64,000 nt of DNA, from NCBI RefSeq assembly GCF_013167455.1, contig NZ_CP038328.1; one strand, 5' to 3'. Shown piece after piece: positions 1 to 4,753 of this stretch. Position 1 is the stretch's first letter, and every line of letters begins with the position of its first letter. The position numbers were made by a program. The stretch comes from Escherichia coli O157:H7 (GTDB taxonomy: Bacteria > Pseudomonadota > Gammaproteobacteria > Enterobacterales > Enterobacteriaceae).

Positions 1-3000
1 CCACGCGGCCAGGGGCGGCGGAAGTTAGCGTTGAAGAAGAGTTGCAACGTGTTATTCCTGTGGTTGAGGCAATTGCTCAACGCTTCGAAGTCTGGATCTC
101 GGTCGATACATCCAAACCAGAAGTCATCCGTGAGTCAGCGAAAGTTGGCGCTCACATTATTAACGATATCCGCTCCCTTTCCGAACCTGGCGCTCTGGAG
201 GCGGCTGCAGAAACCGGTTTACCGGTTTGTCTGATGCATATGCAGGGAAATCCAAAAACCATGCAGGAAGCCCCGAAGTATGACGATGTCTTTGCAGAAG
301 TGAATCGCTACTTTATTGAGCAAATAGCACGTTGCGAGCAGGCGGGTATCGCAAAAGAGAAATTGTTGCTCGACCCCGGATTCGGTTTCGGTAAAAATCT
401 CTCCCATAACTATTCATTACTGGCGCGCCTGGCTGAATTTCACCATTTCAACCTGCCGCTGTTGGTGGGTATGTCACGAAAATCGATGATTGGGCAGCTG
501 CTGAACGTGGGGCCGTCCGAGCGCCTGAGCGGTAGTCTGGCCTGTGCGGTCATTGCCGCAATGCAAGGCGCGCACATTATTCGTGTTCATGACGTCAAAG
601 AAACCGTAGAAGCGATGCGAGTGGTGGAAGCTACTCTGTCTGCAAAGGAAAACAAACGCTATGAGTAATCGTAAATATTTCGGTACCGATGGGATTCGTG
701 GTCGTGTAGGGGATGCGCCGATCACACCTGATTTTGTGCTTAAGCTGGGTTGGGCCGCGGGTAAAGTGCTGGCGCGCCACGGCTCCCGTAAGATTATTAT
801 TGGTAAAGACACGCGTATTTCTGGCTATATGCTGGAGTCAGCACTGGAAGCGGGGCTGGCGGCTGCGGGCCTTTCCGCACTCTTCACTGGCCCGATGCCA
901 ACACCGGCCGTGGCTTATCTGACGCGTACCTTCCGCGCAGAGGCCGGAATTGTGATATCTGCATCGCATAACCCGTTCTACGATAATGGCATTAAATTCT
1001 TTTCTATTGACGGTACTAAGCTGCCGGATGCAGTTGAAGAAGCCATCGAAGCGGAAATGGAAAAAGAGATCAGCTGTGTTGATTCGGCAGAACTGGGTAA
1101 AGCCAGCCGTATCGTTGATGCTGCGGGTCGCTATATCGAGTTTTGCAAAGCCACGTTCCCGAACGAACTTAGCCTCAGTGAACTGAAGATTGTGGTGGAT
1201 TGCGCAAACGGTGCGACTTATCACATCGCGCCGAACGTGCTGCGCGAACTGGGAGCGAATGTTATCGCTATCGGTTGTGAGCCAAACGGTGTAAACATCA
1301 ATGCCGAAGTGGGGGCTACCGACGTTCGCGCGCTCCAGGCTCGTGTGCTGGCTGAAAAAGCGGATCTCGGTATTGCCTTCGACGGCGACGGCGATCGCGT
1401 GATTATGGTTGACCATGAAGGCAATAAAGTCGATGGCGATCAGATCATGTATATCATCGCGCGTGAAGGTCTTCGTCAGGGCCAGCTGCGTGGTGGCGCT
1501 GTGGGTACATTGATGAGCAACATGGGGCTTGAACTGGCGCTGAAACAGTTAGGAATTCCATTTGCGCGCGCGAAAGTGGGTGACCGCTACGTACTGGAAA
1601 AAATGCAGGAGAAAGGCTGGCGTATCGGTGCAGAGAATTCCGGTCATGTGATCCTGCTGGATAAAACCACTACCGGTGACGGCATCGTTGCTGGTTTGCA
1701 GGTGCTGGCGGCGATGGCGCGTAACCATATGAGCCTGCACGACCTTTGCAGCGGCATGAAAATGTTCCCGCAAATCCTGGTAAACGTGCGTTACACCGCA
1801 GGTAGCGGCGATCCGCTGGAGCATGAATCAGTCAAAGCGGTGACCGCAGAAGTTGAAACGGCGCTGGGTAGCCGTGGACGTGTGCTGTTGCGTAAATCCG
1901 GCACCGAACCGTTAATTCGCGTGATGGTGGAAGGCGAAGACGAAGCGCAGGTGACTGAATTTGCACACCGCATCGCCGATGCAGTAAAAGCCGTTTAAAG
2001 CGTTAGATAACTGGCTAAAAAGGCGGCGATTGTCGCCTTTTTTCTCGGCGAACACATCGGTTTTGCTGTTTTTTTCCGCAGTTGATACAATGCGATAAAA
2101 TTGCCCTTGCGAAGGTCATTCGTTTTGGTTAGTATTCACACCCGCTTCAGTGGGAAAGATTATAAACTCCCGCTTTATTGGTTGAAGCATTGGTACGCGG
2201 CAACTCCGCAAGGAACAGGTTGATTATGTACGAAGCTCTTTTGGTAGTTTTCCTTATTGTGGCAATTGGCCTTGTTGGTCTGATCATGCTACAGCAAGGT
2301 AAAGGCGCTGATATGGGAGCCTCCTTCGGAGCAGGCGCTTCCGCTACGCTGTTTGGTTCAAGTGGTTCTGGTAACTTCATGACCCGCATGACGGCGTTGC
2401 TGGCAACGTTATTCTTCATCATCAGTCTGGTGCTGGGTAACATCAATAGCAACAAGACCAATAAAGGTAGCGAATGGGAAAACCTGAGTGCGCCGGCGAA
2501 AACCGAACAAACTCAGCCAGCTGCTCCGGCTAAGCCGACCAGCGATATCCCGAACTAAAAAGTAGTTTCCGTGCCGAGGTGGTGGAATTGGTAGACACGC
2601 TACCTTGAGGTGGTAGTGCCCAATAGGGCTTACGGGTTCAAGTCCCGTCCTCGGTACCAAATTCCAGAAAAGAGACGCTGAAAAGCGTCTTTTTTCGTTT
2701 TGGTCCTGGTCTGAGGAATGGTTGTCAGGTATCTGTATCTCGTCCAGTTGCTTTACTCGTAGCTGGTACCTTGAAACGATGGTGCCGGTACGCCTTCGTT
2801 ATAAACTTTTCCCTACTGCTGACATAATTGGCACTTTATTGTGTCAACTCCAGTTCCGGTACGAATACGGATATGTTTACTTCTCGATAAACCATCCTGC
2901 TCCTGTCAGTATAACTACTGATGGCTACGTTCTGCGTAATGTTTAGAGACGCATTGATAATGTTATTTAATTACTGAGAACGCAATGGCCGCATCATTTA

Positions 3001-4753
3001 AAAAGAAAAAACTAACAGTGTTTCGTTCTGATATGGATCAGAGTTGAAAAACATGTCTGATATAAAATTGCACATTGTTGATAATTGTTTATATTGGTTG
3101 TGAACTTGGATTTCTGGATGACAGTATTCAACAAATTTGCTAGAAGTTTTAAATCTCATTGGTTGTTGTATCTTAGTGTTATTGTTTTTGGTATTACGAA
3201 CTTAGTCGCCTCTTCCGGAGCGCATATGGTTCAGCGATTGCTGTTCTTCGTTCTGACCATCCTGGTTGTTAAACGTATATCATCCCTTCCGCTTCGCCTG
3301 CTTGTTGCCGCACCATTTGTGTTACTGACTGCGGCAGACATGAGTATTAGCCTCTATTCATGGTGTACCTTTGGTACAACTTTCAATGATGGATTTGCGA
3401 TTAGTGTGCTGCAGAGTGATCCGGATGAAGTTGCCAAAATGCTGGGAATGTATAGCCCTTATCTATGTGCTTTTGCCTTTTTATCCCTTCTTTTTTTGGC
3501 TGTAATAATAAAATATGATGTTTCCTTGCCGACAAAAAAAGTGACAGGAATATTATTGCTGATTGTCATTTCGGGAAGTTTATTTTCCGCTTGTCAATTT
3601 GCTTATAAAGATGCCAAAAATAAAAATGCGTTCAGTCCATATATACTAGCGTCGCGATTTGCTACCTATACGCCGTTTTTCAATCTCAATTATTTTGCTT
3701 TAGCAGCGAAAGAGCATCAAAGATTACTCTCAATTGCAAACACAGTGCCGTATTTTCAATTATCAGTCAGGGATACAGGTATTGATACCTACGTGTTGAT
3801 TGTGGGGGAGTCTGTACGTGTCGACAATATGTCTTTGTATGGATATACACGCTCTACGACACCGCAAGTCGAAGCACAAAGAAAACAGATCAAACTGTTT
3901 AATCAAGCAATAAGCGGTGCACCTTACACTGCGCTGTCGGTTCCCCTTTCTTTAACTGCTGATTCTGTTTTGAGCCATGACATTCATAATTACCCCGACA
4001 ACATTATTAATATGGCTAATCAAGCAGGATTTCAGACTTTCTGGCTAAGCTCGCAATCCGCTTTTCGGCAGAATGGTACAGCAGTTACCAGTATCGCCAT
4101 GCGTGCCATGGAAACAGTTTATGTCAGAGGATTTGATGAATTGTTGTTGCCGCATTTATCGCAAGCATTACAGCAAAATACGCAGCAAAAGAAACTGATT
4201 GTTCTTCATTTAAATGGAAGCCATGAACCGGCTTGTAGCGCCTATCCGCAATCCAGCGCCGTGTTTCAACCGCAGGACGATCAGGATGCCTGCTATGACA
4301 ACTCCATTCATTACACAGATAGTTTGCTAGGTCAGGTTTTTGAATTATTAAAAGATCGCCGCGCCTCGGTCATGTATTTTGCCGACCACGGCCTGGAACG
4401 TGACCCTACGAAGAAGAACGTCTATTTTCATGGAGGCAGGGAGGCCAGCCAGCAGGCATATCATGTTCCGATGTTTATCTGGTATAGCCCCGTTCTTGGG
4501 GATGGTGTGGATCGCACAACGGAAAACAACATCTTTTCGACAGCTTACAATAATTACCTTATTAATGCGTGGATGGGGGTAACAAAGCCGGAACAGCCGC
4601 AAACGCTTGAGGAAGTGATTGTACACTATAAAGGAGACTCACTGGTTGTGGATGCAAACCATGATGTTTTCGATTATGTGATGCTCAGAAAGGAGTTTAC
4701 AGAGGATAAGCAAGGTAACCCCACCCCTGAAGGGCAGGGTTGATGTCGAATTA

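What the first reader, a model, noticed from the sequence alone, without database searches (positions are those of the whole stretch)
2574..4743. AT-rich sulfatase-family membrane gene yhbX immediately downstream of tRNA-Leu
yhbX, with a long AT-rich leader (2700..3117), sits directly 3' of leuU. tRNA genes are common integration sites, and yhbX is a candidate lipid A or glycan phosphoethanolamine transferase whose substrate is not established.
Basis: inference. Interest (0 to 1): 0.3.

Follow-up and report, generated by a model that had tools for sequence, protein, structure and literature searches.

The report
Acquired yhbX gene cassette beside leuU
yhbX is an already-annotated E. coli gene for a membrane enzyme that probably attaches phosphoethanolamine to an unknown envelope molecule; it is old foreign DNA that fills a variable gap just after a tRNA-Leu gene, but nothing shows that the tRNA was used as an integration site.

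Summary
The window is E. coli O157:H7. tRNA-Leu(GAG) leuU lies at 2573-2659 and its terminator at 2667-2696. A 416-nt AT-rich spacer follows (2702-3117, GC 39%), then yhbX (3118-4743, 541 aa), which ends 7 nt before the convergent argG stop.

- **Foreign origin:** the 2-kb cassette has GC 42% against 50% for the window, and GC3 0.41 against 0.55-0.59 in the neighbouring genes. Salmonella and Citrobacter have leuU and argG about 180-210 nt apart with no yhbX.
- **Variable slot in E. coli:** of 5426 complete genomes, 5165 carry yhbX, 237 carry an unrelated HTH gene, 9 carry the E. fergusonii-type yhbX (68% aa identity, synonymous sites saturated), and 1 carries a decayed remnant.
- **A mobile relative:** a third yhbX lineage (65-67% identity) rides pheV-integrated islands.
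- **No tRNA-directed integration:** there is no integrase and no repeat of the leuU 3' end. The junction lies 42 nt past the tRNA, after the terminator.

Within E. coli the cassette is old and under purifying selection (dN/dS 0.10). YhbX has the full EptA/MCR-1 architecture and catalytic residues but fits none of EptA, EptB, EptC or OpgE. Its acceptor remains unknown. The finding is ordinary and largely already known.

The parts
2226..2558 (+). secG, co-transcribed with leuU; conserved left flank of the variable slot
   Evidence: ORF and translation. Annotated secG in matching genomes. secG-leuU is one transcription unit (PMC10502375).
2573..2659 (+). leuU, tRNA-Leu(GAG)
   Evidence: ARAGORN. 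Rfam tRNA, 52.8 bits. 100% identical between O157 and K-12.
2667..2696 (+). Intrinsic terminator of secG-leuU; the last sequence shared by all slot variants and by Salmonella and Citrobacter
   Evidence: 13-bp stem followed by a T-run. Homology among alleles A, B, C, E7-1N7, Salmonella and Citrobacter ends right after ...TTTTTTCGTTTT.
2702..3117 (+). AT-rich upstream spacer of the yhbX cassette (GC 39.4%); non-coding and specific to the E. coli allele
   Evidence: No homology to the spacer of the E. fergusonii allele or to the island copy. No Rfam or Pfam match. 98.3% identical between O157 and K-12. Fold z-score only -2.1. An RpoH holoenzyme SELEX peak is reported in the yhbX-leuU spacer (PMC5493296).
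3057..3085 (+). Sigma-70-like promoter match (CTGATA-17-GATAAT), 33 nt upstream of the ATG; candidate only
   Evidence: Consensus scan; the number of such sites is not above shuffles.
3118..4743 (+). yhbX coding sequence (541 aa plus stop): a PEtN-transferase-family inner-membrane protein
   Evidence: dN/dS is 0.10 between O157 and K-12.
3118..3738 (+). Codons 1-207: N-terminal helical membrane domain plus bridging helices
   Evidence: AF2 helices span residues 2-207. Hydrophobic segments lie between residues 16 and 162. The full-length model superposes on EptA 5FGN and MCR-1 9NWW.
3787..4518 (+). Codons 224-467: periplasmic sulfatase/alkaline-phosphatase-fold catalytic domain carrying E231, T271, H369, D423, H424 and H438
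   Evidence: Pfam PF00884, E = 2.2e-56. Residue-by-residue alignment to NmEptA E240, T280, H383, D452, H453 and H465. These positions are invariant or nearly invariant in a 50-sequence alignment.
4714..4740 (+). Nine extra C-terminal codons (GNPTPEGQG), absent from the E. fergusonii allele. They read through the degraded remnant (4717-4741) of the hairpin that follows the stop codon in allele C.
   Evidence: Sequence comparison of the A and C right ends. The hairpin is intact in C (z = -4.1 and -3.2) and weak in A.
4744..4750 (.). 7-nt gap between the convergent yhbX and argG stop codons; the ancestral argG terminator is missing
   Evidence: The argG terminator AAAAAAGGCCGC..GCGGCC is present in Salmonella, Citrobacter, allele B and E7-1N7 but absent from A. 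argG-yhbX is listed as an overlapping-transcript pair (PMC12288877).
4751..6094 (-). argG; conserved right flank. The last two codons are altered in allele A (..KGQ, against ..KAK or ..KVK elsewhere), and diversity rises towards the cassette.

Best explanation
yhbX is a single-gene, AT-rich cassette of foreign origin. It sits in the hypervariable spacer between the secG-leuU terminator and the 3' end of argG.

It entered the E. coli lineage before the species diversified. The route was not tRNA-directed site-specific integration; illegitimate insertion, or exchange by homologous recombination through the conserved secG-leuU and argG flanks, are the likely routes (inferred). Its arrival or later trimming removed the argG terminator and altered the last two argG codons. 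Since then it has been inherited vertically in about 95% of E. coli under purifying selection.

The product is an inner-membrane phosphoethanolamine (PEtN) transferase of the EptA/MCR-1 architecture. By analogy with that family, Thr271, activated by a Zn2+ site formed by E231, D423 and H424 with H369 and H438 nearby, takes PEtN from phosphatidylethanolamine. It then passes PEtN to an acceptor on the periplasmic side of the membrane. The acceptor is not lipid A 1/4'-phosphate, Kdo or heptose-I phosphate in the EptA, EptB or EptC sense. It is most likely another envelope glycan.

Shown here: anatomy, composition, distribution, selection, fold and catalytic residues. Inferred: enzymatic activity, mode of insertion, and weak or H-NS-silenced expression.
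For: Foreign origin:
- GC is 42.1% against 50.4% for the window, and GC3 is 0.41 against 0.51-0.59 in neighbours.
- Empty slots occur in S. diarizonae, Citrobacter sp. MGH106 and C. amalonaticus S646.
- More distant Enterobacterales have leuU followed directly by rimP-nusA-infB.
- The nearest non-Escherichia relatives are only 40-48% identical. They are scattered (Buttiauxella, Pectobacterium, Mixta, Microvirgula), and the two checked (Buttiauxella, Mixta) sit as singletons at unrelated loci.
- A 65-67%-identical copy lies on a pheV-integrated island and on a 62-kb circular element.

Slot variability:
- 5165 genomes carry yhbX, 237 an HTH gene, 9 the E. fergusonii type and 1 a remnant.
- A versus C has pS 0.76 and dN 0.22, while flanking argG has dS 0.17 and glmM dS 0.23.

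Old resident under selection:
- Between O157 and K-12, the spacer is 98.3% identical, yhbX 98.4% and argG 98.9%; yhbX dN/dS is 0.10.

Enzyme:
- Pfam Sulfatase matches at E = 2e-56.
- Catalytic residues align to NmEptA and are invariant across 50 relatives.
- The AF2 model has pLDDT 92.6. Its best PDB matches are full-length EptA 5FGN and MCR-1 9NWW (TM 0.60-0.65) and the EcEptC domain (TM 0.74-0.77).
- YhbX is not EptA, EptB or CptA: 92-155 bits against cut-offs of 404-900. It shares 25-32% identity with the K-12 paralogs.
- The literature states that no function is established (PMC4013655).
Against: - No biochemical or genetic evidence for activity or acceptor was found in the 20 papers that mention yhbX.
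- The only phenotypes are incidental hits in screens.
- Both spacers flanking yhbX are used as neutral insertion sites without reported harm. This fits a gene that is dispensable or poorly expressed in the laboratory.
- The mode of insertion is inferred only from the absence of integrase signatures. An ancient integrase-mediated event whose traces have eroded cannot be excluded.
- Two saturated-divergence yhbX lineages occupy the identical slot in E. coli and E. fergusonii. This is not explained by a single simple insertion.
- Other Escherichia species (E. albertii, E. marmotae, E. ruysiae) could not be sampled.
Confidence: 0.72

Rival explanations
1. yhbX is the last remnant of a classical genomic island that a tyrosine integrase inserted into leuU. 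The integrase, the rest of the island and the att repeats have since been deleted or eroded.
For: - The cassette lies directly 3' of a tRNA gene and is AT-rich.
- A 65-67%-identical YhbX-like gene really is cargo of a tRNA-Phe (pheV)-integrated island with an adjacent integrase, and is present in 444 of 5426 genomes. It also lies on a 62-kb circular element with an integrase.
- Published island surveys list 'yhbX' together with intA/intS (PMC6174562; PMC12054123).
Against: - No copy of the leuU 3' end occurs in 64 kb, allowing up to 3 mismatches in 26 nt.
- The best local alignment of leuU to the cassette is no better than shuffles (249 of 300 shuffles score as well).
- No integrase ORF or remnant appears in the spacers by tblastx against island DNA.
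- The foreign DNA starts after the terminator, 42 nt past the tRNA end, whereas att sites overlap the tRNA 3' end.
- leuU was not found described as an integration site.
Confidence: 0.1
2. yhbX is ancestral to the Escherichia/Salmonella/Citrobacter group at this position and was lost in the other genera. Its odd composition and the A/C divergence reflect fast local evolution.
For: E. coli and E. fergusonii both carry a yhbX in the same slot and orientation, with a homologous 3' hairpin.
Against: - Synonymous sites between A and C are saturated (pS 0.76) while neighbouring genes show dS of about 0.2, and the upstream spacers are unalignable.
- GC3 of 0.41 is far from the genome norm.
- Three outgroup genomes have intact short spacers with REP-like sequence and the argG terminator, not deletion scars.
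- The closest homologs elsewhere are at most 48% identical and sit at unrelated loci.
Confidence: 0.06
3. yhbX is a silent, functionless passenger, effectively a decaying gene, so there is no mechanism to explain.
For: - The region is AT-rich and likely H-NS-bound (inference).
- No promoter scores above chance.
- argG has no terminator, so argG transcripts should run antisense into yhbX.
- About 5% of genomes lack the gene, and an IS1203 insertion interrupts it in an O111:H8 strain.
- Both flanking spacers tolerate engineered insertions.
Against: - dN/dS is 0.10 within E. coli.
- At least 80% of the cassette query (leuU, spacer and yhbX) is present in 5165 of 5426 genomes, at 95-100% identity across matching genomes.
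- All catalytic residues are retained in three lineages that are 65-68% identical to each other.
Confidence: 0.1
4. YhbX is a cryptic lipid A PEtN transferase, an intrinsic MCR-like enzyme that could confer polymyxin resistance when expressed.
For: YhbX has the same fold and catalytic set as EptA and MCR-1. The best NCBIfam match is the generic 'phosphoethanolamine--lipid A transferase' domain model.
Against: - The score is 155 bits against a cut-off of 500. All MCR and EptA equivalog models are far below threshold.
- Identity to K-12 EptA is only 27% over 293 aa. By BLAST score OpgE is the closest K-12 paralog.
- No report links yhbX to polymyxin resistance in the papers searched.
Confidence: 0.08

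Closest known systems
EptA (Neisseria meningitidis, PDB 5FGN) and MCR-1 (PDB 9NWW): lipid A phosphoethanolamine transferases
   Same: Same two-domain architecture: an N-terminal helical membrane domain and a periplasmic alkaline-phosphatase-fold domain. Same catalytic Thr and Zn ligands. These are the best structural matches to the AF2 model.
   Different: Only 18-27% identical. Far below NCBIfam equivalog cut-offs. No evidence that lipid A is the acceptor.
EptC/CptA (E. coli b3955; PDB 5ZZU, 6A82) and OpgE/YbiP (b0815)
   Same: Same family. The CptA subfamily model is the second-best NCBIfam hit (141.6 bits). OpgE is the best-scoring K-12 paralog by BLAST (122 bits, 30% over 268 aa). The EcEptC periplasmic domain superposes with TM 0.74-0.77.
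   Different: Below the CptA cut-off (404 bits). YhbX retains H438, where EptC has Arg and OpgE has Leu. YhbX forms its own clade with Buttiauxella, Mixta, Pectobacterium, Providencia and Microvirgula proteins.
YhbX-like PEtN transferase carried on pheV-integrated genomic islands and on pRHB40-C01_2 of E. coli
   Same: 65-67% amino-acid identity to both slot alleles. Same length class and catalytic residues. It falls in the same Escherichia clade in the NJ tree.
   Different: It is cargo of a large island with a tyrosine integrase next to tRNA-Phe. Nucleotide homology is confined to the coding region, and the flanking DNA is unrelated to the leuU-argG cassette.
Classical tRNA-linked genomic or pathogenicity islands (pheV, pheU, selC, leuX type)
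   Same: Adjacent to a tRNA gene, atypical base composition, variable presence among strains.
   Different: No integrase, no direct repeat of the tRNA 3' end, and a boundary lying beyond the tRNA terminator. Only 2 kb with one gene, and fixed in most of the species.
Strain-variable replacement slots between conserved flanking genes, exchanged by homologous recombination (a comparison from general knowledge, not tested here)
   Same: Alternative, unrelated or deeply diverged contents sit between the same conserved flanks. Nucleotide diversity rises in argG towards the junction.
   Different: The slot is small, holds one gene, and one allele dominates (95%). No evidence was obtained of selection for diversity.

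Membership tests
Phosphoethanolamine transferase family (EptA/EptB/EptC/OpgE/MCR; 'YhbX/YhjW/YijP/YjdB') | Periplasmic catalytic domain of the sulfatase/alkaline-phosphatase fold | tested here: met
   Pfam PF00884, E = 2.2e-56, residues 224-467. Foldseek matches to the EptA, EptC and MCR-1 catalytic domains, TMt 0.72-0.77.
Phosphoethanolamine transferase family (EptA/EptB/EptC/OpgE/MCR; 'YhbX/YhjW/YijP/YjdB') | N-terminal multi-helix membrane domain joined to the catalytic domain by bridging helices | tested here: met
   AF2 model (pLDDT 92.6) has helices over residues 2-207. The full-length model superposes on 5FGN (551 columns, TM 0.60) and 9NWW_B (TM 0.64). Hydrophobic segments lie between residues 16 and 162. 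The Pfam N-terminal EptA_B_N model gave no hit at E <= 0.01.
Phosphoethanolamine transferase family (EptA/EptB/EptC/OpgE/MCR; 'YhbX/YhjW/YijP/YjdB') | Catalytic Thr nucleophile and Zn-binding Glu/Asp/His residues | tested here: met
   E231, T271, H369, D423, H424 and H438 align to NmEptA E240, T280, H383, D452, H453 and H465. They are invariant or nearly invariant in the 13- and 50-sequence alignments.
Phosphoethanolamine transferase family (EptA/EptB/EptC/OpgE/MCR; 'YhbX/YhjW/YijP/YjdB') | Transfer of PEtN from phosphatidylethanolamine to a defined acceptor | not testable with these tools
   No experimental report was found in the 20 papers that mention yhbX. PMC4013655 states that no function is established.
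EptA / MCR (lipid A PEtN transferases) | Score above the NCBIfam equivalog or exception cut-offs | tested here: not met
   EptA models score 92.4 and 121.5 bits against cut-offs of 660 and 561. MCR models score 33-71 bits against cut-offs of 1075-1250. Identity to K-12 EptA is 27%.
EptC/CptA (heptose-I phosphate PEtN transferase) | Score above the NCBIfam CptA cut-offs | tested here: not met
   141.6 bits against 404, and 123.7 bits against 900. Identity to K-12 EptC is 25%.
EptB (Kdo PEtN transferase) | Score above the NCBIfam EptB cut-off | tested here: not met
   104 bits against 493. Identity is 32% over 257 aa only.
OpgE (periplasmic glucan PEtN transferase) | Orthology to E. coli OpgE (b0815) | tested here: not met
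   30% identity over 268 of 541 residues. OpgE falls outside the YhbX clade in the NJ tree, and position 438 is His in YhbX but Leu in OpgE.
tRNA-integrated genomic island | Integrase gene or remnant next to the tRNA | tested here: not met
   The only ORFs in 2660-4750 are yhbX and short ORFs without matches. tblastx of the spacers against integrase-bearing islands finds nothing.
tRNA-integrated genomic island | Direct repeat of the tRNA 3' end at the far boundary | tested here: not met
   The 26-nt leuU 3' end occurs once in the 64-kb window, allowing up to 3 mismatches. Local alignment is not above shuffles. The repeat finder returns only short chance-level pairs.
tRNA-integrated genomic island | Island boundary inside or at the 3' end of the tRNA gene | tested here: not met
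   All alleles and outgroups share sequence through the terminator and diverge only after position 2701, 42 nt past the tRNA.
tRNA-integrated genomic island | Atypical composition and variable presence among related genomes | tested here: met
   GC 42% against 50%, GC3 0.41. Absent from Salmonella and Citrobacter. Replaced in 247 of 5426 E. coli genomes.

The most novel reading that the evidence does not exclude
The leuU-argG gap is a small exchangeable slot for envelope-modification genes. Deeply diverged PEtN-transferase xenologs (the E. coli type, the E. fergusonii type, and a third type circulating on pheV islands) and an unrelated HTH cassette are swapped through the conserved flanks. The yhbX lineages would have different acceptor specificities on a surface glycan, maintained by phage or host pressure. 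Loss of the argG terminator would couple yhbX expression inversely to arginine-starvation-driven argG transcription (an excludon).
Probability: 0.1. Interest if true: 0.5.

Novelty: already known. Interest (0 to 1): 0.2.

Why it matters
YhbX is the one E. coli paralog of the EptA/EptB/EptC/OpgE family that still lacks an assigned acceptor. It is nearly species-specific, with only distant homologs elsewhere, and is conserved under purifying selection. PEtN decorations change envelope charge, resistance to polymyxin and cationic peptides, and recognition by phages and the immune system, so finding the acceptor would fill a small but real gap.

The work here adds four points:
- The gene is an old foreign insertion, not a tRNA-integrated island.
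- Salmonella and Citrobacter provide natural empty sites.
- About 5% of E. coli genomes are natural replacements or knock-outs.
- Related copies travel on pheV islands.

None of this is surprising to a specialist. It is typical of small AT-rich islets in E. coli. A practical note: both spacers flanking yhbX are used as 'neutral' engineering sites, and they lie in a naturally variable slot.

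Tried and rejected
- **Repeat of the leuU 3' end.** A 26-mer search with up to 3 mismatches over the whole window, the repeat finder and Smith-Waterman against shuffles all found nothing. 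The 20-nt similarity 2601-2620 / 2767-2786 (75%) is chance-level.
- **Integrase or island remnants in the spacers.** tblastx and blastn against pheV-island, pRHB40-C01_2 and K-12 leuX-island DNA found none.
- **Structured RNA or a known RNA family in the 'leader'.** Rfam found none. The fold z-score is -2.1, which is marginal.
- **A promoter in the spacer.** The consensus scan is not above shuffles.
- **The 74-aa ORF at 2722-2946.** No Pfam hit; treated as spurious.
- **Island copy = K-12 yjgX.** Rejected, because yjgX is only 30% identical.
- **E7-1N7 as a pristine empty site within E. coli.** Rejected, because its 273-nt spacer is a colinear, decayed remnant of allele B.
- **Allele C as an E. 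coli polymorphism.** The one strain examined (AST85) is 99% identical to E. fergusonii over 13.6 kb, so it probably reflects mislabelling or a large introgression.
- **Anti-phage defence role for YhbX or the HTH protein.** PADLOC gave no hit for YhbX and only weak HTH-only hits for the HTH protein.
- **Protein searches.** The two word-indexed searches were saturated by near-identical E. coli entries. The 50%-cluster search was the informative one.
- **The genome-contig scan with the leuU 3' 48-mer.** It returned only 23 loci and no Escherichia species other than a contaminant contig, so E. albertii, E. marmotae and E. ruysiae could not be examined.

Full report
**What is there.**
The window is E. 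coli O157:H7. Positions 2560-4760 are 100% identical to O157:H7 chromosomes, where the features are annotated tRNA-Leu, 'yhbX: phosphoethanolamine transferase' and argG. ARAGORN places tRNA-Leu(GAG), leuU, at 2573-2659. secG (2226-2558) lies upstream and forms one transcription unit with leuU (PMC10502375). A canonical terminator occupies 2667-2696. A 416-nt spacer follows (2702-3117), then yhbX from ATG 3118 to the stop at 4741-4743 (541 aa). argG converges on the minus strand (4751-6094), only 7 nt away.

The AT-richness is real. The spacer has GC 39.4%, yhbX 42.8% and the whole segment 42.1%, against 50.4% for the window. The segment falls in the lowest 6% of 2-kb windows. GC3 is 0.41, against 0.51-0.59 in the neighbours. 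Calling the spacer a 'leader' is not justified: no promoter scores above chance, no Rfam family matches, and the fold z-score is only -2.1.

**Is the interval invariant? No.**
Of 5426 complete E. coli genomes, 5165 carry at least 80% of the cassette at 95-100% identity. Three other states occur.
- In 237 genomes the segment between the leuU terminator and argG is replaced by an unrelated 1.2-kb piece of GC 37%. It encodes a 317-aa protein with an N-terminal XRE-type HTH on the opposite strand.
- In 9 genomes it holds a 531-aa PEtN transferase that is only 68% identical in protein and 71.5% in DNA to YhbX. The upstream spacer is unrelated.
- One genome (E7-1N7) has only 273 nt there, a colinear decayed remnant of the HTH cassette.

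All variants share sequence through the terminator (...TTTTTTCGTTTT, window 2701) and diverge immediately after it.

**Outgroups.**
An exact-match scan with the leuU 3' 48-mer returned 23 loci. In Salmonella enterica subsp. diarizonae, Citrobacter sp. MGH106 and C. amalonaticus S646, leuU is followed by about 180-210 nt and then the argG stop. That short spacer holds REP-like sequence and a canonical argG terminator (AAAAAAGGCCGC..GCGGCC), and there is no yhbX.

In Hafnia, three Edwardsiella species, Phaseolibacter, Tenebrionibacter and an Enterobacteriaceae MAG, leuU is followed directly by rimP-nusA-infB, without argG. Elsewhere other genes occupy the position:
- chaperone-usher fimbrial genes in Intestinirhabdus alba;
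- an ArnT-like gene in Rosenbergiella nectarea;
- an MFS transporter gene in C. amalonaticus ku-bf3.

The DNA just 3' of the secG-leuU terminator is therefore a recurrent place of gene-content change, and yhbX is a gain in Escherichia.

**Age and selection.**
Between O157 and K-12 the spacer (98.3%), yhbX (98.4%) and argG (98.9%) diverge alike, and yhbX has dN/dS 0.10. The cassette predates the diversification of E. coli and is maintained by purifying selection.

The 68% allele is the resident gene of E. fergusonii, in the same slot. The 'E. coli' strain examined that carries it, AST85, is 99% identical to E. fergusonii over 13.6 kb. Between the two alleles, synonymous sites are saturated (pS 0.76, dN 0.22), while flanking argG and glmM show dS of 0.17 and 0.23. 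The two alleles are therefore xenologs, far older than the species split.

Both share a 3' hairpin (CCCTGCCC..GGGCAGGG). It is intact after the stop codon in E. fergusonii (z = -4.1). In E. coli it is degraded and read through as nine extra codons (GNPTPEGQG). In the E. coli allele the argG terminator is gone and the last two argG codons differ (KGQ, against KAK or KVK). argG diversity also rises towards the junction. How two such old lineages came to occupy the same slot is not explained. Exchange through the conserved flanks from an unsampled donor is my inference.

**Was the tRNA the target? No evidence.**
- The leuU 3' 26-mer occurs once in the 64 kb, allowing up to 3 mismatches.
- Local alignment of leuU to the cassette is no better than shuffles.
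- The repeat finder gives only chance-level pairs.
- No integrase or remnant is present.
- The boundary lies 42 nt beyond the tRNA, past the terminator.

There is one real link to tRNA islands. A third lineage, 65-67% identical to both slot alleles, is cargo of a pheV-integrated island with a tyrosine integrase next to tRNA-Phe. It is present in 444 of 5426 genomes, and it also lies on a 62-kb circular element, pRHB40-C01_2. Island surveys mention such 'yhbX' genes (PMC6174562; PMC12054123). Homology between that copy and the slot cassette is confined to the coding region. The K-12 yjgX pseudogene in the leuX island is a different, 30%-identical paralog.

**What the protein is.**
- Pfam Sulfatase matches residues 224-467 at E = 2e-56.
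- phmmer against the PDB finds NmEptA 5FGN and EcEptC at about 1e-23. In those alignments YhbX E231, T271, H369, D423, H424 and H438 align to EptA E240, T280, H383, D452, H453 and H465.
- These positions are invariant or nearly invariant in 13- and 50-sequence alignments.
- An AF2 model (pLDDT 92.6, pTM 0.90) has helices over residues 2-207 followed by the alpha/beta domain. It best matches full-length EptA (TM 0.60), full-length MCR-1 (TM 0.64) and the EcEptC domain (TM 0.74-0.77).

YhbX is nevertheless none of the characterised enzymes.
- All NCBIfam models fall far below their cut-offs.
- Identity to K-12 OpgE, EptB, EptA and EptC is 25-32%.
- Only 121 clusters (at 50% identity) reach E <= 1e-30. 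The nearest relatives outside Escherichia are 40-48% identical, in Buttiauxella, Pectobacterium, Mixta and Microvirgula; the two checked (Buttiauxella, Mixta) sit as singletons at unrelated loci.

By analogy with EptA and MCR-1 (established knowledge of that family), I infer this mechanism. Zn-activated Thr271 takes PEtN from phosphatidylethanolamine, forming a phospho-enzyme intermediate and releasing diacylglycerol. PEtN is then passed to a periplasmic-face acceptor. The acceptor is unknown. No paper among the 20 that mention yhbX establishes a function. Only incidental screen hits exist.

**Regulatory consequences (inferred).**
With no terminator between the convergent genes, argG and yhbX transcripts must overlap. 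The pair is listed by ExcludonFinder (PMC12288877). An RpoH-holoenzyme SELEX peak (PMC5493296) and a predicted GalR site (PMC5110547) are reported near yhbX. Both flanking spacers are used as neutral insertion sites.

**Verdict.**
The horizontal-origin idea is supported and sharpened: empty sites exist in sister genera, the slot has alternative contents, the E. fergusonii allele is a xenolog, and a relative is island-borne. The tRNA-integration mechanism fails each test applied. The gene is an already-annotated member of a known enzyme family whose acceptor remains open. Interest is low.

Noticed in passing
L001 20175-21128 (minus); replaces window 2702-4750 in 237 of 5426 E. coli genomes: An alternative cassette in the leuU-argG slot. 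It encodes a 317-aa protein with an N-terminal XRE-type HTH (Pfam HTH_19, 1.7e-5, below cut-off) and about 270 residues of unknown function, GC 37%. Homologs sit on Serratia (51%), Rhizobium (45%) and Vibrio (25-27%) plasmids and none in phages. This haplotype keeps the ancestral argG terminator.
   Followed up: partly
L041 3261-3533 (E. coli E7-1N7): The only E. coli genome of 5426 with leuU and argG close together (273 nt apart). The spacer is a colinear, decayed remnant of the HTH cassette, not a pristine empty site.
   Followed up: yes
L002 (NZ_AP043644.1, 'E. coli' AST85), whole 40-kb locus: The strain is 99% identical to E. fergusonii over at least 13.6 kb around the slot, and only 93-99.8% identical to E. 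coli across the 40 kb. It is probably a mislabelled E. fergusonii or carries a large introgression. The other 8 genomes with this allele were not checked.
   Followed up: partly
L035 20339-22012 (pheV island, E. coli YZMc3-1); L032 438-2099 (pRHB40-C01_2): A second yhbX-like PEtN transferase (65-67% aa identity) is carried on pheV-integrated islands with a tyrosine integrase. It is present at 80% coverage or more in 444 of 5426 genomes. It also lies on a 62-kb circular 'plasmid' that looks like an excised island (integrase, AlpA, YeeU/YeeV-type TA, antirestriction, F4-like fimbriae, astA).
   Followed up: partly
L037 1617-3476 and L034 906-5292 (E. coli K-12): Other PEtN-transferase paralogs also sit beside tRNA genes. 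eptB lies directly next to tRNA-Pro proK. The yjgX pseudogene (30% identical to YhbX) lies in the leuX-linked element near the intB pseudogene.
   Followed up: no
L017, L011, L014, L003, L008, L019, L024, L012, L021, L023 (downstream of leuU): The position just 3' of leuU differs across Enterobacterales. rimP-nusA-infB follows directly (no argG) in Hafnia, Edwardsiella, Phaseolibacter, Tenebrionibacter and a MAG. Chaperone-usher fimbrial genes follow in Intestinirhabdus alba, an ArnT-like (PMT-family) gene with ArnD/ArnA-like neighbours in Rosenbergiella nectarea, and an MFS transporter gene in C. amalonaticus ku-bf3. argG itself therefore looks like an older insertion into a leuU-metY-rimP arrangement.
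   Followed up: partly
Window 4751-4756 and 4751-4950 (argG 3' end): In yhbX-carrying E. coli the ArgG C-terminus is ..NKGQ. It is ..NKAK in E. fergusonii and Citrobacter and ..NKVK in the HTH haplotype. argG nucleotide identity among E. coli strains falls from about 99% at the 5' end to 93-97% in the last 190 nt next to the cassette.
   Followed up: yes
NZ_CP077565.1 (E. coli O111:H8 strain 1056-1), hit H15: yhbX is interrupted by an IS1203 insertion and annotated as two sulfatase-like fragments. This is a natural knock-out.
   Followed up: no
Window about 36150-40250 and about 56650-62800: Two other low-GC stretches in the window. The first is the yraH-K fimbrial operon, with yraJ carrying an internal stop and an adjacent IS1203. 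The second is tdcR-yhaB-yhaC, where GC falls to 0.33. In the aga cluster, nagA (agaA) is annotated as frameshifted and agaI as carrying an internal stop in O157.
   Followed up: partly
NZ_MG591698.1 (353,691-bp record in the plasmid collection), hits H56 and H61: A 354-kb 'plasmid' record of E. coli carries the yhbX spacer and gene at 98.5-99% identity. It is presumably an F-prime-like element or a chromosomal segment filed as a plasmid. Three other 'plasmid' hits are 4.8-4.9-Mb chromosomes filed in PLSDB.
   Followed up: no
L016 (JAIJJM010000762.1, 'MAG: Collinsella sp.'): A 1.5-kb contig binned as Collinsella carries leuU, the E. coli HTH cassette (99.7% aa identity) and the argG 3' end. It is an E. 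coli contaminant in that MAG.
   Followed up: yes
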